NCBI RefSeq assembly: GCF_009914755.1
Contig: NC_060927.1
DNA: 64,000 nt
Strand: one strand, 5' to 3'
Source of the DNA: the human T2T-CHM13v2.0 reference genome, Homo sapiens
Positions 3,915-38,223 of the stretch are shown one piece after another; the first letter of the stretch is position 1; the number at the start of each line of letters is the position of its first letter. Under the pieces are notes generated by a model that was not told the DNA's origin, searched no databases, and saw only the letters and a list, made by a program, of their open reading frames with translations. Made by a program: the position numbers and the translations under genes.

Positions 3915-4227
<313 letters not shown>

Positions 4228-4555
4228 ATGATTATTGTTTTTAATCTCCGCAGCACTTATATGAATTAGCTACTATTTGCTATGGTTATTTTATTAATAT
4301 ATTCATTTCCATATTTTATATGGAATTGGATGCTTAGAGAGATAGTGTGAGCTGTACAAAGTTACTCTATAAGCAGAGGAGCTTCAATTCTAAACGAGAC
4401 AACCTGGCTCAAGTGCTCTTAACAATTATGCTCTACTGCCTCACTTCAAATCAAAAAGGAGTTTCAAAAAACCCAAGGAACTGCCTCCTGCCAGTAACTT
4501 TTATATGCTATGACTATGTAAGCATGACCTTCTCACTTCTCCCCGTCCCCTACTC

Positions 4556-14262: not shown

Positions 14263-15448
14263 AAACAAACAAACTTTATTCTCTAGAGCAGTTTTAGGTT
14301 CACAGCAAAATTGTGCAGAAAGTACAGAGTTCTCATATATCCCTTGTCACCTATCAACATCCTGTGCTAGAGCAGTATGTTTGTAACAATCAATGAACCA
14401 ACATTGATACACCATTATCACCTAAAGTCCATCATTTACATTAAGGTTCACCCTTAGTGTTGTACATTCTATGGGTTTTGACAAACGTATAATGACAAAC
14501 CATTATATCATACAGAATGGTTTAAGCGTTCCAAAAACTCCGTGTTCCACCTATTCATCCCTGTTACCCCACTGACCCCTGTCAGTCACTGATCTTTTAC
14601 TGTCTTCATACTTTTCCCTTTTCCAGAATGTCATATAATAGAAATTATACTGTATATACCCTTTTTAAATTGGCTTCTTTCACTTAGAAATATGAGTTTA
14701 AGTTTCCTCCATGTCTTTTCATAACTGGGTAGCTTATTTCCTTATACAGCTAAATAATATCACATCATAGGGATATATCATAGTTTATTTATTCATTCAC
14801 CCAGTGAAGAACATCTTTGGTGGAGTGCATGGTAAGAGTAAATCTAGTTTTACAAGAAGCTGCCAAACTGTTTTGCACAGTGGCTGTACCATTTTGCATT
14901 TCTACCAGCAGTGAATGAGTTCCTGTTGCTCCATGTACTCACCAGCATTTGATGTTGTCAGTGTTTTGGATTTTTACAATCCTAATCAATGTGTACTGGT
15001 ATCTCATTTTTTTAAATTTGCAATTCCATAATGACATATGATGTTGTACATATTTTCTTATGCTTATTTGTCACTTGTATACCTTCTTTGATTATGTGTG
15101 TGTGTTCAGATCTTTTGCCCATTTTTTAATTGGGTTGTTCATTTTCTTATTCCTGAGTTTTAAAAGTTTTTAAATATTTTAGATAATAGTCCTTTATCAT
15201 ACATGTCTTTTGCAAATATTTTTCTCCCAGTCTGTCACTTATCATTCTCTTGACAGTGTCTTTTGCAGAGCAGAAATATTAAATTTTAATGCAGTACAAC
15301 TTATCAATTGTTCCTTTCATGAATTGTGCCTTTTGTGTTGCATCTAGAAAGATCTAAGAAGTCATTGCCAAGCCCAAGATCATCTAAATTTTCAGTCATA
15401 TTTTAGGATTTTTATAATTTTGCATTTTACACATAGATCTATAGCCCA
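14263..15448 (-). mobile_element. Old L1M (L1MC/MD-like) 3' region, continuing briefly at about 18065-18110
   Basis: agagcagttttaggttcacagcaaaattg 3' end and ORF2 3' homology (tggctgtaccattttgcattt). Confidence 0.8.
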
Positions 15449-18064
15449 TTTTTTAAATACTTTAAGTGCTGGGATACATGTACAGAAAGTGCATGTTTGT
15501 TACATAGGTATACATGTGCCATGGTGATTTGCTGCACCCATCAACTCATCATCTACATTAGGTATTGGTCCTAATGCTATCCCTCCCCTAGCCCCACAAC
15601 CCCCAACAGGCCCCAGTGTGTAATGTTCCCCTCCCTGTGTCCATGTGTTCTCATTGTTCAACTCCCACTTATGAGTGAGAACATGTGGTGTTTGGTTTTC
15701 TGTTCCTGTGTTAGTTTGCTGAGAATGGTGGTTTCCAGCTTCATCCATGTCCCTGCAAAGGACAGAAACTCATCCTTTTTATGGCTGCATAGTATTCCAT
15801 GGTGCATATGTGCCATATTTTCTTTATCCAGTCTATCATTGATGGGCATTTGGGTGGGTTCCAAGTCTTTGCTTTTGTGAACAGTGCTGCAATAAACATA
15901 CGTGTGCATGTGTCTTTATAGAATGATTTATATTCCTTTGGGTATATACCCAGTAACGGGATTGCTGGGTCAAATGTTATTTCTGGTTCTAGATCCTTGA
16001 GGAATTGCCATACTGTTTTCCACAGTGGTTGAACTAATTTACACTCCCACCAACAGTGTAAAAGCATTCCTATTTCTCCAAATCCTCTCCAGCATCTGTT
16101 GTTTCCTGACTTTTCAATGATCATCATTCTAACTGGCATGAGATGGTATCTCATTGTGGTTTTAATTTGCATTTCTCTAACGACCAGTGACGATGAGTTT
16201 TTCATATGTCTGTTGGCTGCATAAATGCCTTCTTTTGAGAAGTGTCTGTTCATATCCTTCACCTACTTTTTGATGGGGTTGTTTCTTTTTTTCTCATAAA
16301 TTTGTTTAAGTCATTTGTAGATTCTGGATATTAGCCCTTTGTCAGATGGATAGATTGCAAAAATTTTCTCCCATTCTGTAGGTTGCCTGTTCACTCTGAT
16401 GGTAGTTTCTTTTGCTGTGCAGAAGCTCTTTAGTTTAATAAGATCCCATTTGTCTATTTTGGCTTTTGTTGCCGTTGCTTTTGGTGTTTTAGTCATGAAG
16501 TATTTGCCCATGCCTATGTCCTGAATGGTATTGCCCAGGTTTTCTTCCAGGGCTTTTATGGTTTTAGGTCTTACACTTAAGCCTTTAATCCATCTTGGGT
16601 TAATTTTTCTATAAGGTGTAAGGAAGGGATCCAGTTTCAGCTTTCTGCATATGGCTAGCCAGCTTTCCCAACACCATTTATTAAATAGGGAATCCTTTCC
16701 CTATTGCTTGTTTTTGCCAGGTTTGTCAAAGATCAGATGGTTGTAGATGTGTCGCATTATTTCTGAGGGCTCTGTTCTGTTCCATTGGTCTATATATCTG
16801 TTTTGGTACCCGTACCATGCTATTTTGGTTACTGTAGCCTTTTAATATAGTTTGAAGCCAGGTAGTGTGATGCCTCCAGCTTTGTTCTTTTTGCTTAAGA
16901 TTGTCTTGGCTATATGGGTTCTTTTTTGGTTCCATGTGAAATTTAAAGTAGATTTTCTAAATCTGTAAAGAAAGTCAATGGTGGCTTGACGGGGATAGCA
17001 TTGAATCTATAGATTACTTTGGGCAGTATGGCCATTTTCATGATATTGATTACTCCTATCCATAAGCATGGAATGTTTTCCCATTTGTTTGTGTTCTCTC
17101 TTATTTTCTTGAGCAGTGGTTTGCAGTTCTCCTCGAGGAGGTCCTTCACATCCCTTGTAAGTTGGATTCCTAGATATTCTATTCTCCTTGTAGCAATTGT
17201 GAATGGGAGTTCACTCATGATTTGGCTCTCTGTCTGTTATTGGTGTATAGGAATGCTTGTGATTTTTGCACATTGATTTTGTATCCTGAGACTTTGCTGA
17301 AGTTGCTTATTAGCTTAAGGAGATTTTGGGCTGAGATGATGGGGTTTTGTAAATATACAATCATATCATCTGCAAACAGAGACAATTGGACTTCCTCTTT
17401 TCCTAATTGAATACCCTTTATTTCTTTCTCTTGCCTGATTGCCCTGGCCAGAACTTCCAATTCTATGTTGAATAGGAGTGGTGAGAGAGGGCATCCTTGT
17501 CTTATGCTGGTTTTCAAAAGGAATGCTTCCAGTTTTTGCCCATTCAGTATGATATTGGCTGTGGGTTTGTCATAAATAGCTAGTATTTTGAGACGCATTC
17601 CATCCATACCTAGTTTATTGAGAGTTTTTAGCATGAAGAGGTGTTGAATTTTGTTGAAGGCCCTTTCTCCATCTATTGAAATAATCATGTGGTTTTTGTC
17701 ATTAGTTCTGTTTATGTGATGGATTATGTTTATTGATTTGTATATGTTGAACCAGCCTTGTATCCCAGGGATGAAGCTGACTTGATGGTGGAGGATAAAC
17801 TTTTTGATGTGCTGCTGGATTTGGTTTGCCAGTATTTAATTGAGGATTTTTGCATTGATGTTCATCAGGGATATTGTCCTGAAATATTCTTTTTTTTGTT
17901 GTGTCTCTGCCAGGTTTTGGTATCAGGATGAAGCTAGCCTCATAAAATAAGTTAGGGAGGATTCCCTCTTTTTCTATTGTTTGGAATAGTTTCAGAAGGA
18001 AACTCCTCTTTGTACCTCTGGTAGAATTCAGGTGTGAATCCATCTGGTCCTGGGCGTTTCTTGG
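15449..18064 (-). mobile_element. 5'-truncated L1PA7/8-like LINE-1 (ORF2 RT to 3'UTR) nested in L1M
   Basis: ORF2 fragments in the ORF track ([27 protein letters not shown]); 3'UTR; degenerate TSD tatagcc at 15440-15446 and 18067-18073. Confidence 0.93.
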
Positions 18065-19029
18065 ATTATAGCCTATATTTTAGTTAAAGTTTGTGATGGT
18101 AATAAAGAGCTTTTAATTTTCATTTTGAAACCTTTGGTACTATTTTATTTTGTTTTCAATTGCATGCTTTGCTTTTAGAAGATGATTTTTTAAAATTACC
18201 CATAAACTTGATAATTCAAATTCTAAGCAATTATCCTAAGAAAATAACCAGAGGCTTAGACAAAGATATTCATCCAACACTATTTATGATAGTGAGATAT
18301 TATAAGCAACCCAAGTATCAAAAATTACAAGAAAAATTAAAGTATATTATACCCATTTCATAAAATGTTATAAAGCTCTTTTAAGTATTGTTTTTAAATA
18401 TTTTTTACTTTCCTGGAAGAAATTATACCAAATGTCATCATTAAAATATAGAATGTAGGTTATATTTTATTTTTATATGTTTTTATATAATATGTATTCA
18501 TTTTATAATCAGAAAAAAATTAAGATTTTTTTCCTACGGAACTGAAGTGTCAAGTGACCCTTTATAAAGACCTTTATAAAGACTTAAATGACAAATGACA
18601 TATTTTTCAGGACACTAGGCCAAACCAAAGATACGATATCCTTTCCTAATATTATGAAGTAGATTTTGGCACCCAAAGCACATTTATATGTGTAGAAAGC
18701 ACATTTATATCAGTAGAAAGTAATTAGTAGTGGTTGGTTTATTAGAGATAGAATTTAGATAATTAGAGAGAAGATTTGGGGGTTAGGAACTACAAGGTAA
18801 GGATAAATGACAGAATTATAGTCAGGAACCTGAAAAGGCTCTCCAAATATATCTGTGTAATAGAACATTTCCACAGAGTGCAAAGGATCTTCAACTTCTA
18901 AAACCCTGTGATATAAATGATTAATACATCCAGACTATCTGATGCTTCTCATGTATCTTCAGTTCAGGATAAGGGGCTACCAAATAAAACTTTTCTTACC
19001 CTTCATACCCAAATAATATGTATGCTTAG

Positions 19030-19250
19030 GTAAGAACCTTGGTATTTGTGGGATAGGTCCTGGATTGAAGTCTGAAGGCCCAAGTTTAAGTCCCAGCTCA
19101 ACTGGTTATTTATGGCATGACTTGGCTAAGTCATGTAACCAATATGGAAGTTATCTCATCTGTTCATAATACCAGCTGTGTCTCTTAACACAGAGTTATC
19201 ATGAGAACCAAATGAGATCATATATATGAGAGCTAAGAAGTGCTAAACAA
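19030..19250 (+). mobile_element. MIR SINE
   Basis: gtttaagtcccagctcaact...gacttggctaagtcatgtaacc...gttatcatgagaaccaaatgagatcatatat. Confidence 0.65.
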
Positions 19251-19317
19251 TGTATTTTATAATAAAATTTTCTTTCTATCAACAATTATTTGTTTGGCCT
19301 CCATAGCCACTTAAAAA

Positions 19318-19698
19318 TGAAGCAGCAGCGTTGTCTGGGGTAAATACCCAAGGTTCGTTGTCTCACACCAAGGGAATTGAGGAAACAGATACCACGAGAA
19401 GTGGGTTTAGGAGCAGCAGTTTAATAGGCAAAAGAAAGAGGCAGGAGAACAGCAACCAAATGGGACTTCCGGCCCACAGTGGAGTGCATCAGATTTTATA
19501 GACAGGCTTGAGGAGGCAGTGTCTGATTTACATAGGGCCTAGAGATTGGTTGGACCAGTTGTGACATTTACATAACACACAGGGAAGTTGACTACGTCAC
19601 CCTAATCTTCTTACTATGCAAATGGGCTTTCCACTTGGCTGGCACCATGTAGTCCGTTCCCTACTGCACACGTGCTTGGAAAGGAAAAGGGAAGATAG
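19318..19698 (-). mobile_element. ERV1/MER4-group LTR (MER51A-like), U3 end deleted
   Basis: Begins tgaagcagcagcgttgtctggggtaaatacc (reverse complement of the LTR 3' end); poly(A) signal region gtttaataggcaaaag; homology stops at gggaagat. Confidence 0.75.
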
Positions 19699-19700
19699 CT

Positions 19701-19731
19701 GGCTCGTTGGTCTAGGGGTATGATCCTTGCC
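19701..19731 (+). pseudogene. tRNA-Pro 5'-half fragment (nt 1-31)
   Basis: ggctcgttggtctaggggtatgatccttgcc versus cytoplasmic tRNA-Pro GGCTCGTTGGTCTAGGGGTATGATTCTCGCT: first 24 nt identical, 28/31 overall. Confidence 0.9.
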
Positions 19732-24056
<4,325 letters not shown>

Positions 24057-24057
24057 G

Positions 24058-24362
<305 letters not shown>

Positions 24363-27300
24363 TTTTTCTCTGTTTCTTGATGTCTTTTAGTTGAAGATAC
24401 TTCACTAACCACCAAGAGAAGTGGTTGAGTTAGCAGCTCTAACCAAGTTCCCTTCAAATCTTGACCTTTCTATGTTTCCCTATGACATGAGAATAAGGGC
24501 AAATACAACAGTAACCTGAGGAAATTCAGCGCTAATTCTATAAGTCATGGACCCAGTTTTAATTATATATTTCCTTAACACATAATTTGGTTTTGGGTAT
24601 GTTTAGCCAGTTTTTTTCAGGGCTCATGAGTGCCTAGAAACTACGCAGCTTTAAGTATATATCCTGTACAACTGGTTTCAAGGCATATGCATGAGGTGAC
24701 TTCATGTTTTCAGTATTAATTTCTACCCTGTCACTTAAATAGATTCTCTGGAAATATTAAAACACTATGGCAATACAAGGCAAAGGAGGCATATTTTTTC
24801 ACTGCCCCATTGCCCAGATGGTGAAACAGTGTGTCAGCAACAGAAGCAAAACCAGAGTCAAGGCCAAGTAATTAATTCACTATGCAACTTCCATTGCAAA
24901 AATATAGTAGTATTTTGGAACATGTGTTCTATAATATCCATTCTTGGCCCAGTCTACTCTGAGCTAAATGTTCCTGATATTTCCAAGAACAGCAAAAACC
25001 ATTAATTCAATTCAACTCTGTGCTACAGTCAAATCAACAGGCCCCATATTACCAATAAACATTTCTATGTAAAGCTATTAAATTCAATATTAAGTTCTGA
25101 AATTAGAATTCAGGATTTTGTAAAGTGGCAATGTTCACTATTCTCTGCATGAATCATTCAGGAAATCTGATTATAACCTACTACAGTAGATTAGTACTAC
25201 AAAGAAGGGAAAGAGGGGGTAAGAAGCCCAGCTGGAGATTTGTAGTGCTAGCGGGGGAAGAAGACTGGCTTAGATTTATTGGAGACTAATTAAGACATGA
25301 GTTAGAGCAAGCAGCTGACATCTAGACTAAAACTGGAGGCACAAATTTCAATATAGACAGAGGGAGTCAGTTGAGAACCCAAGGAAGAATAGCAGTCCAC
25401 TAGGCATAGAAGAATACAAGCAGAAAAATGTAATGATCCAGACAAGTCCTTACAAAGCCCACTGATCCAGCAACCAAGATTTCGATGAAGTACAAAAAGT
25501 GCTTGAAAACAAAATGTCTCAGTTCCAGTCTAAAATTGAAAACTCACAACATATATGATCTTAGGAGATAGTCCCTTGATCTCTCTGAGTCTCAATCCCC
25601 TCATACAAAATGGGAATTGTTTTCAAACTACTTTGCAAAGGCATGGGGAAAATTACCTATTTCATCAGAAAATATTTTGTAAAATGCAAATTGACACAAA
25701 TGTTTAGTGATGGTGATGGCATTATCATGGCTTTTGATATTACTAGTATTAATTTAATGGGATAATATTTTAAAGATTAACTGATATATTTTTGTCCTGG
25801 GTAAGTCTCATTGCCCAGTGATGCTCTAGCCATTGAGGCTGAAGTGTCCACTGCTGAAGAGCAAAATCAGCCTGAAAACAAAGGAGTCATTGCTCAACCT
25901 CAACATTCAGAATAGACTGTTTTAAGTCATAAAAAGCATGCCAGTCATGAAAGGAACTTGTTTTAACTACAAGAACCACACACTTAAGGAGGGGGAGAAA
26001 AGGTTTTCTGAATTCCAGAAGCTTTGCTGTATATTAAAAACCAGTACCTCATTAATTCAAGACATCACTTTTTTGTTTTCCTGTAAGCAGTAGAGAAGAA
26101 AAGATACAAGACACAAGGCAAAAGCAATTTCCCACTAAAAAGAACGGCCCTCAAAACCATTCCTAGTCTGGATTAATGAGTGGCAAGATAAAAAGAGAAG
26201 CTTTAGACATAATTGAGGGCTTCTGCCACATCCCCCCTTGCATCACCACATACCTGAGATTTCATTTCTGGAATGGGAGAATTGATATAAGAAACATCCC
26301 ACCCCTCAGCTACACTTTAGAATCCAAAAGCAAAAGGGACTTTTTTCCTGCTTCCACCTGGAATCCCAGGGAAATGCAATCATTCAGTGTATAATCTAGC
26401 AACATGGGGTGGCTATTGAAGAAAAAGAGAACTATAGACAGAAGGAAACAAGTATAGGAAAAGAAAGTGTTGATGAGAGCAACATGTTCCTAGAGCCTGC
26501 ATGTGGTATGGAGGAAAACCGGACATTCCCACCTACCCACACTGTGGCCTGCAGACTTGCTGAGAGGATCAGCTGACTCAAAGAGCCCTGACATGGGATC
26601 AAGAACACAAACAGACCACCAGTGGCCGTGGCAGTTCATGTGCATGTGCATCTGCATGATCTTTCGTCCCCTTCTCCTTCACTTCTCACTGAGTGGCCTT
26701 GCTGGTGTGCCTGGAGCCACTTGGCCCATGAGGCACATGGGGTCACCTGCTCCTAACTCAGAAGGTATCTTCTTAATGCATTGGCTTCAAAATCAGTAGA
26801 GAAAATAAGTTCTGTGTTCTCTAGCAGAGTGGGTATAATTTGGCATTCAGCAAATCAAATATCAAAGGAATTTTAGTCTGCTATGAACTATGCATTCTAC
26901 TGAGTGCCAAAACCAAATATAATATACAGACAGTCTTATTTTATTCTGCTTCACTTTATTGTGTTTCACAGATATTTCATTGTTTACAAATTGAAAGTTT
27001 ATAGCAACTCTGAGTCTAAGTCTATTGGCCTCATTTTCTCCAACAGCATATGCTCACTTCATGTCTCTGTGTCACGTTTTGGTAATTCTCGCAATATTTC
27101 AAATTTTTATTATTATTTTATCTGTCATGGTGGTCTATAATCAGTAATCTTTGATGTTACTATTGTAACTGTTTGGGGGCACCACAAATCACGTCCATAT
27201 AAGATGGCAAACTTAATAAATGTTTGTGTTCTGACTGCTCTACCAACTGGTCATTCCCTTCTTTACCCTCTCCTCCAGGCCTCCCAATTCCCTGAGACAC

Positions 27301-30913: not shown

Positions 30914-31820
30914 GGGGGAGGAGCCAAGATGGCCGAATAGGAACAGCTCCGGTCTACAGCTCCCAGCGTGAGTGACGCAGAAGACGGGTGATTTCTGCAT
31001 TTCCATCTGAGGTACCGGGTTCATCTCACTAGGGAGTGCCAGACAGTGGGCGCAGGCCAGTGGGTGCGTGCACCGTGCAGGAGCGGAAGCAGGGCGAGGC
31101 AGTGCCTCACCTGGGAAGCACAAGGGGTCAGGGAGTTCCCTTTCCGAGTAAAAGAAAGGGGTGACGGACGCACCTGGAAAATCGGGTCACTCCCACCCGA
31201 ATATTGCGCTTTTCAGACCGGCTTAAAAAACGGCGCACCATGAGACTATATCCCACACCTGGCTCAGAGGGTCCTACGCCCAAGGAATCTCGCTGATTGC
31301 TAGCACAGCAGTCTGTGATCAAACTGCAAGGCGGCAGCGAGGCTGGGGGAGGGGCGCCCGCCATTGGCCAGGCTTGATTAGGTAAACAAAGCAGCCAGGA
31401 AGCTCGAACTGGGTGGAACCCACCACAGCCCAAGGAGGCCTGCCTGCCTCTGTAGGCTCCACCTCTGGGGGGCAGGGCACAGACAAACAAAAAGACAGCA
31501 GTAACCTCTGCAGACTTAAATGTCCCTGTCTGACAGCTTTGAAGAGAGCAGTGGTTCTCCCAGCACGCAGCTGGAGATCTGAGAACTGGCAGACTGCCTC
31601 CTCAAGTGGGTCCCTGACCCCTGACCCCCGAGCAGCCTAACTGGGAGGCACCCCCCAGCAAGGGCACACTGACACCACACACGGCAGGGTATTCCAACAG
31701 ACCTGCAGCTGAGGGTCCTGTCTGTTAGAAGGAAAACTAACAAACAGAAAGGACATCCACACCGAAAACCCATCTGTACATCACCATCATCAAAGACCAA
31801 AAGCAAAAAAAACCACAAAG
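30914..31820 (+). promoter_or_regulatory. L1 5'UTR with sense and antisense promoter (CpG-rich, YY1 site)
   Basis: YY1 motif caagatggccg near the start; many CpGs retained. Confidence 0.85.
31128..31364 (-). CDS. L1 ORF0 (antisense), intact, 78 aa
   Basis: MAGAPPPASLPPCSLITDCCASNQRD...RCVRHPFL followed by LLGKGTP*. Confidence 0.75.
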   Translation of the reverse strand: MAGAPPPASLPPCSLITDCCASNQRDSLGVGPSEPGVGYSLMVRRFLSRSEKRNIRVGVTRFSRCVRHPFLLLGKGTP

Positions 31821-32839
31821 ATGGGGAAAAAACAGAACAGAAAAACTGGAAACTCTAAAAAGCAGAGCGCCTCTCCTCCTCCAAAGGAACACAGTTCCTC
31901 AACAGCAACGGAACAAAGCTGGATGGAGAATGACTTTGACGAGCTGAGAGAAGAAGGCTTCAGACGATCAAATTACTCTGAGCTATGGGAGGACATTCAA
32001 ACCAAAGGCAAAGAAGTTGAAAACTTTGAAAAAAAATTTAGAAGAATGTATAACTAGAATAACCAATACAGAGAAGTGCTTAAAGGAGCTGATGGAGCTG
32101 AAAACCAAGGCTCGAGAACTACGTGAAGAATGCAGAAGCCTCAGGAGCCGATGCCATCAACTGGAAGAAAGGGTATCAGCAATGGAAGATGAAATGAATG
32201 AAATGAAGTGAGAAGGGAAGTTTAGAGAAAAAAGAATAAAAAGAAATGAGCAAAGCCTCCAAGAAATATGGGACTATGTGAAAAGACCAAATCTACGTCT
32301 GATTGGTGTACCTGAAAGTGATTAGGGAGAATGGAACCAAGTTGGAAAACACTCTGCAGGAAATTATCCAGGAGAACTTCCCCAATCTAGCAAGGCAGGC
32401 CAACGTTCAGATTCAGGAAATACAGAGAACGCCACAAAGATACTCCTCGAGAAGAGCAACTCCAAGACACATAATTGTCAGATTCACCAAAGTTGAAATG
32501 AAGGAAAAAATATTAAGGGCAGCCAGAGAGAAAGGTCGGGTTACCCTCAAAGGGAAGCCCATCAGACTTACAGCGGATCTCTTGGCAGAAACCCTACAAG
32601 CCAGAAGAGAGTGGGGGCCAGTATTCAACATTCTTAAAGAAAACAATTTTCAACCCAGAATTTCATATCCAGCCAAACTAAGCTTCATAAGTGAAGGAGA
32701 AATAAAATCCTTTACAGACAAGCAAATGCTGAGAGATTTTGTCACCACCAGGCCTGCCCTAAAAGAGCTCCTGAAGGAAGCACTAAACATGGAAAGGAAC
32801 AATCGGTACCAGCCGCTGCAAAATCATGCCAAAATGTAA
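31821..32839 (+). pseudogene. L1 ORF1p, disrupted (frameshifts near 32030 and 32322; TGA at 32209)
   Basis: MGKKQNRK...; split across the ORFs at 31821, 32017 and 32303; ends LQNHAKM*. Confidence 0.93.
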
Positions 32840-32875
32840 AGACCATCGAGACTAGGAAGAAACTGCATCAACTAA

Positions 32876-36721
<3,846 letters not shown>

Positions 36722-38223
36722 ACAATGAGATCACATGGACCCAGGAAGGGGGATATCACACTCTGGGGACTGTGGTGGGGTGGGGGGAGGGTGGAGGGAT
36801 AGCATTGGGAGATATACCTAATGCTAGATGACGAGTTAGTGGGTGCAGCGCACCAGCATGGCACATGTATACATATGTAAGTAACCTGCACAATGTGCAC
36901 ATGTACCCTAAAACTTAAAGTATAATAAAAATAAATAAATAAATAAATAAAAATGGAAATAAACAGTTTCTTTTCATTGTTCCTGTACTTTCATGGCTAT
37001 TGCAATTTTAGCTTACATTAATATTACCTGATTTGACCTACATGTTACGTAAGGCAAAAGGACAGCATTTAGGGAATCTGCAGTTATATAAGATCATATG
37101 ATCATTCAACATAGTATGAAAATCTCAAATGTGAATTATTTACATATTTCTGTCTTTTTGACAAAATATTTGGATTCGATGTGGGATATAAGGCTTTTGG
37201 GGATTGTAGTTTGGTTTTTATTTTTATTTTATTTGTTTTTTCTATCAATACATCTCAGTACCTTGCCTTTTGGGTTACAAACAGCTTGGAACAATCTAAG
37301 AAGGGAATTACATGTCTCAAAATACCAAGCAATGAATAATTCTGTATTCAACTCTCTTTGCCTAGAGCTCAGTAGTGAAAGCACAAAGCCTAATGGCAAA
37401 AGGCAATTTTTAAAATAAATATATTACATTTTTTCAGATTACAAAAGTATCATTTGCACCAAGGATAGGTAGAACATATATTTCCAAAGGGAAGGCTATT
37501 AAAACAACCCATAATTTACTACTTAGAAACTATTACCATTTGTTTAAATTTTTTTTTAACCAACGGAGATAATATTGACTTCCTCAACTAACTGGAATGC
37601 TCAGAGGAGAAGTTATAGTTGTCGTGAGTTAGAAAGTCCTCTCAAATATCATAACATATGTGTTGACTCTGAAACCAGAAAAAGGATAAAAAAAAAAAAA
37701 GAGTAATGATCTAGTTCAATAATTCAGGAATAATGAATTAGTGAAATCTAGAATCTCATTTATGACTCAGGAACTTCTAATACTTCTAGATCATCAGGGT
37801 GAAAATCAATTTTTATGCCAGGGCTGAAGTCATAAAGGGAATAGAAGAGGGCCTGAATATGCAAATGCTCGCACAGGGACTGATATAAAATATATTGGCA
37901 ATATTTAAAAGCAGGTACAAATATCCGTTCTATAAAAGACAACCAACAGGTACTAGTAGTCAGTTCTGGCTAATTGATACCAGGCAATAAAACAGCCTAG
38001 TGTTCTATATTCTCCTACTTGTTGTTGCTGTTGTTTCTTAAAGAGAAACCAAAAATCTGTGTCTTTATGTGAAATTTCTACATTTTAAAATTTTCAAATA
38101 AACAGAAATGTTTAAAATATGTAAGCCAATCTACATGACTTTGAGCCTAATTTGGCCTGTTGGTTACCAGTTTCCAGCCCTGATTATCAGAGATTGGGAT
38201 AAACCTGGGCATAACGTAGATCA

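What the first reader, a model, noticed from the sequence alone, without database searches (positions are those of the whole stretch)
19690..19760. tRNA-Pro 5' half fused in register to the first-strand end of a tailless, 3'-truncated L1
Seen: 19701-19731 reproduces tRNA-Pro from its exact mature 5' G to the anticodon-loop edge (28/31). It runs directly into the antisense strand of an L1 that then continues to an intact L1 5' end at about 24056. The L1 has no poly-A and no TSD, and the LTR on the left has lost its U3 end. The native L1 antisense at this spot (visible in the neighbouring copy at 17217-17232) is atgatt-tg-gct-ctctg, and the tRNA ends atgatt-ctc-gct, so the tRNA 3' end is complementary to L1 RNA exactly where the L1 sequence starts. 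Known: angiogenin-type cleavage makes 5' tRNA halves; copia-type LTR elements prime with a tRNA 5' half; L1 normally primes on its poly-A by TPRT; tailless tRNA retropseudogenes and endonuclease-independent L1 insertions exist. Inference: either (A) a tRNA-derived fragment primed L1 reverse transcription internally and the primer was fixed in the genome, or (B) a broken L1 DNA end primed on tRNA-Pro and the cDNA patched a deletion.
Basis: partly seen in the sequence, partly recalled or inferred. Interest (0 to 1): 0.85.

Follow-up and report, generated by a model that had tools for sequence, protein, structure and literature searches.

The report
tRNA-Pro half joined to tailless L1
The first 31 bases of a proline tRNA sit exactly where a truncated, tail-less L1 element is stitched to a broken retroviral LTR; this may be a fossil of a tRNA fragment priming L1 copying, but a two-step origin is not excluded.

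Summary
Window 19701-19724 is the first 24 nt of tRNA-Pro, exact. This 24-mer occurs 21 times in the genome, almost all in real tRNA-Pro genes; the reversed control gives 0. The next 7 nt match 4/7, so 28/31.

- **Left flank:** an old ERV1-type LTR on the minus strand, 19307-19700, lacking about 240 bp of its U3 side. The missing part is nowhere in the window.
- **Right flank:** an antisense L1, 19732-24055, running from L1 position about 4220 to about 9 nt short of its 5' end. It has no poly-A, no TSD and no endonuclease site.
- **Further right:** an Alu tail abuts the L1 5' end, with no significant TSD.

The piece is absent from 11 other LTR copies and 12 other L1 copies.

The anatomy fits an endonuclease-independent L1 insertion or break repair with deletion. 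The tRNA lies in the orientation of a first-strand primer. That differs from the published tRNA-half/L1 chimeras, where the tRNA sits at the L1 5' side with TSDs.

My odds:
- tRNA fragment as primer: about 0.4
- older tailless tRNA retropseudogene later cut by a deletion: about 0.3
- broken L1 DNA end copying the tRNA: about 0.15

Outgroup primates would decide; none was available here.

The parts
19307..19700 (-). Solo ERV1-type LTR (family about 640 bp), U5-R and part of U3. It is truncated on the U3 side at about 19697-19701. The last bases, AGCT, probably still belong to the LTR.
   Evidence: 44 genome matches at 73-84% identity. In the alignment with 11 copies, all of them continue past the break as ...GGAGCCGCCATGTTGGAC.... 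Homology within the family spans about 640 bp, and the missing part is absent from the window. There is a weak mir-4428-like Rfam match, and miR-4428 is listed as LTR/ERV1-derived (PMC10136691).
19701..19724 (+). tRNA-Pro nucleotides 1-24 in sense orientation, exact, starting at the mature 5' G. The G at 19701 could also be the last LTR base.
19725..19731 (+). Ambiguous 7 nt, CCTTGCC. The best reading is tRNA-Pro nt 25-31 (anticodon-stem 5' strand and the first loop base) with three transitions. The crossover into L1 lies within the last 3 nt (GCT in both tRNA and L1).
   Evidence: The tRNA reading needs 3 transitions, one at a CpG. The L1 reading needs 1 indel plus 3 substitutions.
19732..24055 (-). 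L1 of L1PA7/8-like age, covering positions about 10 to about 4220: 5'UTR, ORF1 and part of ORF2. It is 3'-truncated by about 1.8 kb and has no poly-A and no TSD.
   Evidence: Colinear with the window's full-length L1. 39 genome copies match the 5'UTR at 83-88% identity, end to end. Private divergence is 6.3%, and the 5' end is about 8-10 nt short. No tail and no TSD.
24056..24362 (-). Full-length Alu. Its A-tail (24056-24082, seen as a T-rich run) abuts the L1 5' end, in the same orientation as the L1. It may or may not belong to the same event.
   Evidence: The best candidate TSD is 11/13, and 430 of 2000 tail shuffles reach that score.

Best explanation
This is a one-step, endonuclease-independent, L1-mediated repair of a chromosome break that deleted the U3 part of an old LTR and whatever lay beyond it.

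An L1 RNA was reverse-transcribed from an internal site (position about 4220) almost to its 5' end. The primer was not a nicked T-rich target but a 5' fragment of tRNA-Pro (nt 1 to about 31). Its 3' part paired weakly with the L1 RNA: GCU with AGC at the end, and AUGAUU with AAUCAU a few bases back.

The RNA-primed cDNA was captured at the break. Second-strand synthesis copied the cDNA and ran on through the RNA primer to its first base. That end was joined to the broken LTR, which fixed the primer in DNA. The Alu at the far end may have been added by a template jump from the L1 RNA to an Alu RNA tail.

Shown: the anatomy, the orientation, the junction sequences, the LTR loss and the relative ages. 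Inferred: that the tRNA piece entered as RNA, that it served as primer, and that all joints formed in one event.
For: - **Orientation.** On the + strand the order is LTR, then sense tRNA nt 1-31, then antisense L1 running from 4220 towards position 1. This is the order primer, then first-strand cDNA.
- **NCLI features.** The L1 shows 3' truncation, no poly-A, no TSD, no T-rich nick site at the junction, and loss of target DNA. These are the four sequence criteria of non-classical L1 insertions. In that study 15 of 21 carried extra non-L1 nucleotides and 18 of 21 carried target deletions (PMC1920257, sections and passages read). One of the 21 had an Alu without TSD at the L1 5' flank, as here.
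- **RNA-like 5' end.** The tRNA piece starts at the mature 5' end, within 1 nt. That is expected for run-off on an RNA, not for a random break in a gene.
- **Spacing.** The spacer between ATGAT and GC is 4 nt as in the tRNA, not 3 nt as in L1. The partner kept was therefore the tRNA side, as for a primer.
- **ATGATT match.** The L1 sequence just beyond the junction carries ATGATT (9 of 12 copies). AATCAT occurs only 3 times in the 6-kb L1 stand-in.
- **Rarity of a resident copy.** Dispersed tRNA-Pro 5' fragments are rare: about 7 sites in the genome at <=3 mismatches, outside the gene clusters. A pre-existing copy at this very spot is therefore a priori unlikely.
- **Age.** The tRNA piece (3/31 changed) and the L1 (6.3% private divergence) are compatible in age. 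The LTR is older, at 73-84% identity to its relatives.
- **Biochemistry.** ORF2p uses short RNA primers, primers down to 5 nt, non-templated addition and template jumping (PMC10830420, passages read).
Against: - No outgroup genome could be consulted, so a single event is not shown.
- The predicted tRNA:L1 duplex is ordinary: 546-1918 of 5993 windows of the L1 are as good or better. The terminal pairing is only 3 bp.
- Three mismatches fall in the last 7 nt after 24 exact matches. This is an unexplained cluster.
- From my own knowledge, not from a call: angiogenin-type 5' halves end in a 2',3'-cyclic phosphate and cannot be extended without end healing. Copying a modified tRNA through the D-arm is inefficient.
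- No genomic case of a fixed RNA primer of L1 is known to me.
- No second example turned up. Of the 46 dispersed tRNA-Gly-TCC-like fragments examined, 0 have antisense L1 abutting their 3' end. The tRNA-Lys fragments were not examined.
- All known 5'-complete, 3'-truncated tRNA copies are explained by DNA-primed copying of the tRNA, not by the tRNA acting as primer (PMC5322556; Law and Burns).
Confidence: 0.4

Rival explanations
1. Two steps. A tailless tRNA-Pro retropseudogene (nt 1 to about 35-38, with TSD) first inserted by ordinary L1-driven internal priming into the purine-rich stretch of the LTR. Later, a microhomology-mediated deletion (GCT, helped by ATGATT nearby) fused it to a resident, conventionally inserted L1. 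That deletion removed the tRNA's last bases, the second TSD, the LTR U3 part, the DNA in between, and the L1 3' end with its tail.
For: - Tailless tRNA fragments starting at nt 1 are a common, known class. Of the 46 dispersed tRNA-Gly-TCC-like copies, 43 end at nt 33-41. Two tRNA-Pro copies on chr14 end at 35 and 38, with A-rich TSDs. See also PMC5322556 (Results read).
- The LTR just upstream of the tRNA is GGAAAGGAAAAGGGAAGAT, a plausible L1 endonuclease target.
- The fragment here ends earlier (nt 31 or before) than all 51 comparison fragments, as expected if it was cut back by a later deletion.
- Imperfect homology (ATGATT..GCT) between the two partners suits microhomology joining and leaves either spacer.
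- Alu/L1 chimeras with a sense Alu at the L1 5' end are known: 113 loci (Law and Burns, section read).
Against: - It needs two rare things at one spot. Only about 7 dispersed tRNA-Pro 5' fragments exist genome-wide, and the deletion must begin inside one of them and end inside an antisense L1. My rough estimate, an inference, is well under one such chance configuration per genome.
- No trace of a TSD or of the LTR remainder survives to support it.
Confidence: 0.3
2. A resident L1 was broken. The 3' end of its sense strand (ending ...GAGAGC) paired with tRNA-Pro at GCU and was extended by a reverse transcriptase (ORF2p or a repair polymerase) to the tRNA 5' end. This 31-nt cDNA patch was then joined to the broken LTR. 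In effect it is a tailless tRNA retro-insertion with a large target deletion.
For: - This is the established way that 5'-complete, 3'-truncated tRNA copies arise: a DNA 3'-OH primes inside the tRNA and copies to nt 1. The tailless retropseudogenes (PMC5322556) and the tRNA-half/L1 chimeras are explained this way.
- The chr4 tRNA-Pro 1-38/L1 chimera with a 9-bp TSD, found here, is one such case (Law and Burns tRNA sheet).
- Run-off explains the exact tRNA 5' end.
- The LTR loss fits insertion-associated deletion.
Against: - If the ATGATT/AATCAT pairing had been used, the product would carry the L1-type 3-nt spacer. The locus carries the tRNA-type 4-nt spacer.
- If only GCT was used, the ATGATT match just beyond the junction is a coincidence of the order of 1 in 100 to 1 in 1000 (my estimate; AATCAT occurs 3 times in 6 kb).
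- There is no endonuclease-type site at the priming end.
- The Alu abutting the L1 5' end needs a separate explanation.
Confidence: 0.15
3. A non-classical L1 insertion primed by DNA. A pre-existing tRNA-Pro pseudogene next to the LTR was broken at about nt 31, and its DNA 3' end annealed to the L1 RNA and primed the cDNA.
For: It gives the same junction geometry as the primer model. It is also the standard model for 3'-truncated, tailless L1 insertions (PMC1920257).
Against: It requires a chromosome break to fall inside one of the very few tRNA-Pro pseudogene fragments. That is the least likely coincidence of all the readings.
Confidence: 0.05

Closest known systems
Non-classical (endonuclease-independent) L1 insertions at double-strand breaks (Sen et al. 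2007, PMC1920257, read; Morrish et al. 2002, recalled)
   Same: A 3'-truncated L1 with no poly-A, no TSD and no endonuclease site. Target DNA is lost. Extra non-L1 nucleotides sit at the L1 3' end. There is an Alu without TSD at the L1 5' flank, as in 1 of their 21 loci.
   Different: Here the extra nucleotides are a recognisable small RNA in sense orientation relative to the cDNA strand, which an RT extending the genomic end cannot produce. The L1 is nearly full-length at its 5' end, whereas 18 of their 21 were heavily 5'-truncated. The pre-insertion state has not been verified.
tRNA-half/LINE-1 chimeric insertions (Law and Burns, bioRxiv 2025 / Cell Genomics 2026, PMC13174262; passages, section 23 and the tRNA sheet read)
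   Same: A tRNA 5' half (their typical range is 1-37) fused to an L1 in opposite orientation.
   Different: In their 22 listed loci the tRNA lies at the 5' side of a tailed L1, with tRNA nt 1 against the L1. All 8 loci they checked had TSDs of 9-19 bp, and the authors explain the structure by twin priming with the tRNA as template. Here the tRNA lies at the 3'-truncated end, nt 31 is against the L1, nt 1 is against the flank, and there is no TSD and no tail. tRNA-Pro is not in their sheet, nor did a prefix search of their tables find the locus (my hg38 coordinate conversion is approximate).
Tailless tRNA retropseudogenes (Schmitz et al. 2004, known only from citations; Noll et al. 2015, PMC5322556, Results read)
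   Same: A 5'-complete, 3'-truncated tRNA copy with no A-tail. The flanking DNA resembles the last tRNA bases.
   Different: Those end in the anticodon loop, carry TSDs and sit at TT/WAAAA targets. This one ends at nt 31 or before, has no TSD and has no A-rich target.
tRNA priming of retroviruses and LTR retrotransposons (the copia tRNA-Met 5' fragment, recalled; HTLV-1 and tRNA-Pro, PMC11251516, search listing only)
   Same: A tRNA or tRNA fragment serves as the primer of reverse transcription. In retroviruses, plus-strand synthesis copies part of the primer.
   Different: Those elements have a dedicated primer-binding site of about 18 nt, and the primer copy is removed during the cycle. L1 has no such site, and the pairing here is 3 + 6 nt.
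L1- and Alu-insertion-mediated deletions (Gilbert et al. 2002, seen only in a reference list; Han 2005 and Callinan 2005, recalled)
   Same: A retro-insertion without TSD replaces a stretch of target DNA.
   Different: Those keep the A-tail and an endonuclease-type 3' junction.

Membership tests
Non-classical L1 insertion (NCLI; Sen 2007 criteria) | L1 truncated at its 3' end by more than 20 nt | tested here: met
   The L1 stops at about position 4220 of about 6010.
Non-classical L1 insertion (NCLI; Sen 2007 criteria) | No poly-A tail | tested here: met
   No A or T run of 5 or more in 19690-19800.
Non-classical L1 insertion (NCLI; Sen 2007 criteria) | No target-site duplication | tested here: met
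   The left flank and the flank right of the L1 share no word of 4 or more. The only shared word with the flank right of the Alu is a non-adjacent 7-mer.
Non-classical L1 insertion (NCLI; Sen 2007 criteria) | Junction diverges from the L1 endonuclease site TTTT/AA | tested here: met
   The + strand at the junction reads GAAGATAGCT/GGCTCG.
Non-classical L1 insertion (NCLI; Sen 2007 criteria) | The pre-insertion (empty) site in outgroup primates shows insertion rather than later deletion | not testable with these tools
   No primate genome other than the window's own assembly is held.
tRNA-half/L1 chimera (Law and Burns) | tRNA 5' half, antisense to the L1 | tested here: met
   tRNA nt 1-31 on the + strand and the L1 on the - strand.
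tRNA-half/L1 chimera (Law and Burns) | tRNA lies at the 5' side of the L1 | tested here: not met
   The tRNA abuts the 3'-truncated end of the L1, and nt 31 (not nt 1) faces the L1.
tRNA-half/L1 chimera (Law and Burns) | TSDs, a poly-A tail and an endonuclease motif flank the composite | tested here: not met
Tailless tRNA retropseudogene | Starts at tRNA nt 1 and is 3'-truncated, without an A-tail | tested here: met
Tailless tRNA retropseudogene | Ends in a single-stranded loop, with TSDs and a TT/WAAAA target | tested here: not met
   It ends at nt 31 or before, at the stem/loop edge. It is followed by CTCTGTTTG, which is L1, and there is no TSD. The comparison copies end at 33-41 (43 of 46 for Gly; 35 and 38 for Pro) and the two tRNA-Pro copies carry A-rich TSDs.
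Twin-primed (5'-inverted) L1 | The inverted 5' segment is followed by a sense 3' segment with a tail and TSDs | tested here: not met
   Beyond the L1 5' end lies an antisense Alu, not sense L1.
Functional tRNA-Pro gene | Complete cloverleaf | tested here: not met
   ARAGORN finds 0 genes in 18000-26000. Rfam gives no tRNA match at E <= 10. No 3' half is present in the window.

The most novel reading that the evidence does not exclude
The locus is a genomic fossil of RNA-primed L1 reverse transcription. A tRNA-Pro 5' fragment annealed inside the L1 RNA and was extended by ORF2p. The RNA-DNA chimera was captured at a chromosome break, and the primer itself was copied into DNA. This would be the first in-genome evidence that L1 cDNAs primed by small RNAs, so far seen only in vitro and in the cytosol, can reach the germline. 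It would also mean that tRNA fragments can act as primers for a non-LTR element.
Probability: 0.4. Interest if true: 0.8.

Novelty: new variant of a known kind. Interest (0 to 1): 0.55.

Why it matters
L1 is thought to prime on nicked or broken DNA. Priming of ORF2p by short RNAs has been shown biochemically and proposed as the source of cytosolic cDNA (PMC10830420). Whether such products ever integrate is unknown.

A tRNA half fixed at the primer position of a tailless L1 would make that question testable with a single alignment to other primates. It would also give a search pattern: the sense 5' end of a small RNA at the 3'-truncated end of an antisense L1. Current chimera catalogues look only at the L1 5' side and so do not cover this pattern.

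If outgroups instead show a two-step origin, the locus is an ordinary deletion junction.

Tried and rejected
- **Primer-binding site of the provirus.** Rejected. The piece is the sense 5' part of the tRNA (D-arm included), not the complement of its 3' end, and it lies at the U3 side of a minus-strand LTR.
- **Part of the LTR or L1 consensus.** Rejected. The piece is absent from 11 LTR copies and 12 L1 copies.
- **Plain L1 insertion into the LTR.** Rejected. The LTR remainder is nowhere in the window.
- **One rearranged element with the neighbouring L1 (15448-18062).** Rejected. The neighbour has its own 15-bp TSD, 13/15. The 1.24 kb between the two L1s is single-copy.
- **Twin-priming inversion.** Rejected.
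- **The junction is the best tRNA-pairing site in L1.** Not supported.
- **Alu TSD.** Not significant: 430 of 2000 shuffles reach the same score.
- **Search for a second example.** Of the 46 dispersed tRNA-Gly-TCC-like fragments, 0 have antisense L1 at their 3' end. Two of the 46 have L1 nearby in other arrangements. L1 was detected only by BLAST to two L1PA-type references, so older L1 families could be missed.
- **Law and Burns tables.** They contain no tRNA-Pro entry and nothing under the coordinate prefixes 4239-4244 on chr3. My conversion from T2T to hg38 is approximate, and three of their supplementary PDFs could not be read.

Full report
**What is there**

On the + strand the sequence reads ...GGAAAGGAAAAGGGAAGATAGCT | GGCTCGTTGGTCTAGGGGTATGAT CCTTGCC | CTCTGTTTGCCTGTTCTTGGTGTATAGG....

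The 24 bases from 19701 are identical to the start of tRNA-Pro. In the 3.1-Gb assembly this 24-mer occurs 21 times exactly and 30 times with up to 3 mismatches. The reversed control occurs 0 times. ARAGORN finds a tRNA-Pro gene at the hit in 16 of 18 loci scanned; the two without are on chr4 and chrX.

Every tRNA-Pro gene printed continues ...ATGATTCTCGCTTAGG. The window's next seven bases, CCTTGCC, therefore match 4 of 7. The three differences are transitions, one at a CpG.

There is no tRNA gene here, and no 3' half of tRNA-Pro anywhere in the 64 kb.

**Left flank**

Window 19307-19700 belongs to a repeat with 44 scored genome matches at 73-84% identity. Read on the minus strand it has a CCAAT box, TATAAA and ATTAAA in LTR order.

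A weak mir-4428-like Rfam match lies at 19635-19705 (22.5 bits against a gathering score of 90). miR-4428 is tabulated as LTR/ERV1-derived (PMC10136691, one passage read). I did not determine the family name.

Eleven other copies aligned with flanks all continue past the window's break as ...GGGAAGATGGAGCCGCCATGTTGGACATGCCTAG.... Their mutual homology spans about 640 bp. The window copy therefore lacks about 240-250 bp on its U3 side, and that part is found nowhere else in the window.

The bases AGCT before the tRNA align to the LTR's AGC(C/T)G after a 2-nt gap. The LTR thus probably runs right up to the tRNA's first G, with at most 1 nt of overlap and no clear filler.

**Right flank**

From 19732 the sequence is antisense L1, colinear with the full-length L1 at window 30924-36932 (86% over 3.5 kb, then 72% in the 5'UTR). 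The junction corresponds to about position 4220 of about 6010. About 1.8 kb of the L1 3' end and the tail are missing.

The 5'UTR matches 39 other genomic copies at 83-88% identity from end to end. Compared with 11 of them, the window's L1 stops about 8-10 nt short of the family's 5' end. Its private divergence is 6.3%, within the 4.7-6.9% range of its relatives. That is typical of a middle-aged L1PA subfamily. The subfamily name and the age in years are my own recollection of published scales, not from any call.

There is no A or T run at the L1's 3' side and no TSD.

A full-length Alu in the same orientation as the L1 follows directly. Its tail abuts the L1 5' end. Its best candidate TSD (11/13 in T-rich sequence) is reached by 430 of 2000 shuffles.

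The neighbouring L1 at 15448-18062 is a separate, conventional insertion with a 15-bp TSD, 13/15. The 1.24 kb between the two L1s is single-copy.

**The junction**

Native L1 at this place reads ...CATGATTTGGCTCTCTG. ATGATTTGGCT is present in 8 of 12 copies and ATGATT in 9 of 12. tRNA-Pro reads ...TATGATTCTCGCTTAGG. The two share ATGATT and GCT, separated by 2 nt in L1 and 3 nt in the tRNA. Counted from ATGAT to GC, the spacer is 3 nt in L1 and 4 nt in the tRNA.

The window has the 4-nt tRNA spacing. Deriving 19725-19731 from the tRNA needs three transitions. Deriving it from L1 needs an indel and three substitutions, in an L1 that is otherwise well conserved just downstream.

I therefore read the tRNA as running to nt 30-31, with the crossover in GCT. 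The L1's own ATGATT lies in the part that was not kept. This pattern means the tRNA-side nucleic acid was the retained partner of an annealed pair.

The pairing is not strong. Between 546 and 1918 of 5993 windows of an L1 stand-in give an equal or better predicted duplex with the same tRNA segment. AATCAT itself occurs only 3 times in that L1.

The cluster of three changes in seven bases after 24 exact matches remains unexplained.

**Mechanism**

Sense tRNA followed by antisense L1 on one strand cannot be made by a reverse transcriptase extending the LTR's 3' end, because that would give antisense tRNA. Four routes remain:

- (A) The tRNA fragment was the primer of the L1 cDNA and was later copied into DNA.
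- (B) The sense strand of a resident, broken L1 primed on the tRNA and copied it to nt 1.
- (C) A DNA copy of the tRNA was already there and primed the L1 cDNA.
- (D) A DNA copy of the tRNA was already there and was later fused to a resident L1 by deletion.

B is the established way such tRNA fragments arise. However, it predicts the L1-type spacer if the ATGATT pairing was used, and it leaves that match as a coincidence if it was not.

C and D need a tRNA-Pro pseudogene at this spot. Outside the gene clusters I found only about 7 sites with the tRNA-Pro 5' part at <=3 mismatches. Tailless tRNA halves as a class are common, however: 43 of 46 dispersed tRNA-Gly-TCC-like copies end at nt 33-41. 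The purine-rich LTR stretch would also be a fair target.

A fits the orientation, the spacer and the ATGATT match. It also fits the four sequence criteria of non-classical L1 insertions (PMC1920257), including extra nucleotides at the L1 3' end and an Alu without TSD at the 5' flank. ORF2p's use of short RNA primers, non-templated addition and template jumping is documented (PMC10830420).

My odds are A 0.4, D 0.3, B 0.15, C 0.05, with the rest for something else. They rest partly on rough frequency estimates of my own, not on a test.

**Comparison with what is known**

Law and Burns (bioRxiv 2025 / Cell Genomics 2026) list 22 tRNA/L1 chimeras. Most are tRNA nt 1 to about 37, antisense to the L1, at the L1's 5' side. 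All 8 loci they checked had TSDs, and the authors explain the structure by twin priming. The present locus has the mirror geometry and no TSD, and it is not in their tables.

In passing I found a tRNA-Pro example of their kind on chr4. It shows that tRNA-Pro does take part in L1-driven reactions.

The present locus is best filed as a new variant, within two known kinds: non-classical L1 insertions, and tRNA-half/L1 chimeras. Membership of the former lacks its fifth criterion, the outgroup empty site.

**Limits**

- No outgroup genome was available.
- No repeat library was available, so the LTR and L1 subfamily names are not established.
- The search for further examples covered one tRNA family only (46 fragments).
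- Some supplementary PDFs of the Cell Genomics paper could not be read.

Noticed in passing
L014:1356-1560 (T2T chr4:19,040,033): tRNA-Pro nt 1-38 lies antisense to, and at the 5' end of, a roughly 130-bp 5'-truncated L1 3' end. There is a poly-T run, a 7-nt linker and a 9-bp TSD, GTAGTTCTT. This is a tRNA-half/L1 chimera of the published twin-priming kind. It is not in the tRNA sheet of Law and Burns.
   Followed up: partly
L103 (T2T chr8:115,984,637-115,984,937): A tRNA-Gly-TCC-like fragment, nt 1-36, has antisense L1 (positions 5608 to 5520) ending 13 nt from tRNA nt 1. It is probably another chimera of the published geometry.
   Followed up: no
L066-L111 (46 dispersed sites): Of the 46 dispersed tRNA-Gly-TCC-like copies, 43 are 5' halves ending at nt 33-41, and 28 of them end at nt 38. 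This is the known tailless retropseudogene class. tRNA-Pro has far fewer such copies.
   Followed up: partly
window 24056-24362: A full-length Alu in the same orientation as the L1 has its A-tail directly against the L1 5' end. It has no significant TSD. It could be a co-captured Alu, an Alu/L1 chimera or a later insertion.
   Followed up: partly
window 15448-18062: A separate 5'-truncated L1 on the minus strand, with a very short tail. It is flanked by a 15-bp TSD, TATAGCC(C/T)AT(T/A)TTTT, and was inserted into an older L1 fragment.
   Followed up: yes
L047 and L048 (T2T chr2:77.67 Mb and 87.12 Mb): A full-length tRNA-Pro retropseudogene with TSD AAGTTCTTGTGA is present twice with identical flanks. 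It therefore lies within a segmental duplication.
   Followed up: no
window 19635-19705: A weak match to the mir-4428 precursor model (22.5 bits, E 0.38, far below the gathering score) lies inside the LTR. It probably reflects the miRNA's origin from the same ERV1 LTR family.
   Followed up: partly
window 19725-19731: Three substitutions fall within seven bases at the tRNA/L1 crossover, after 24 exact matches. This is more than the locus's 6% divergence predicts.
   Followed up: partly
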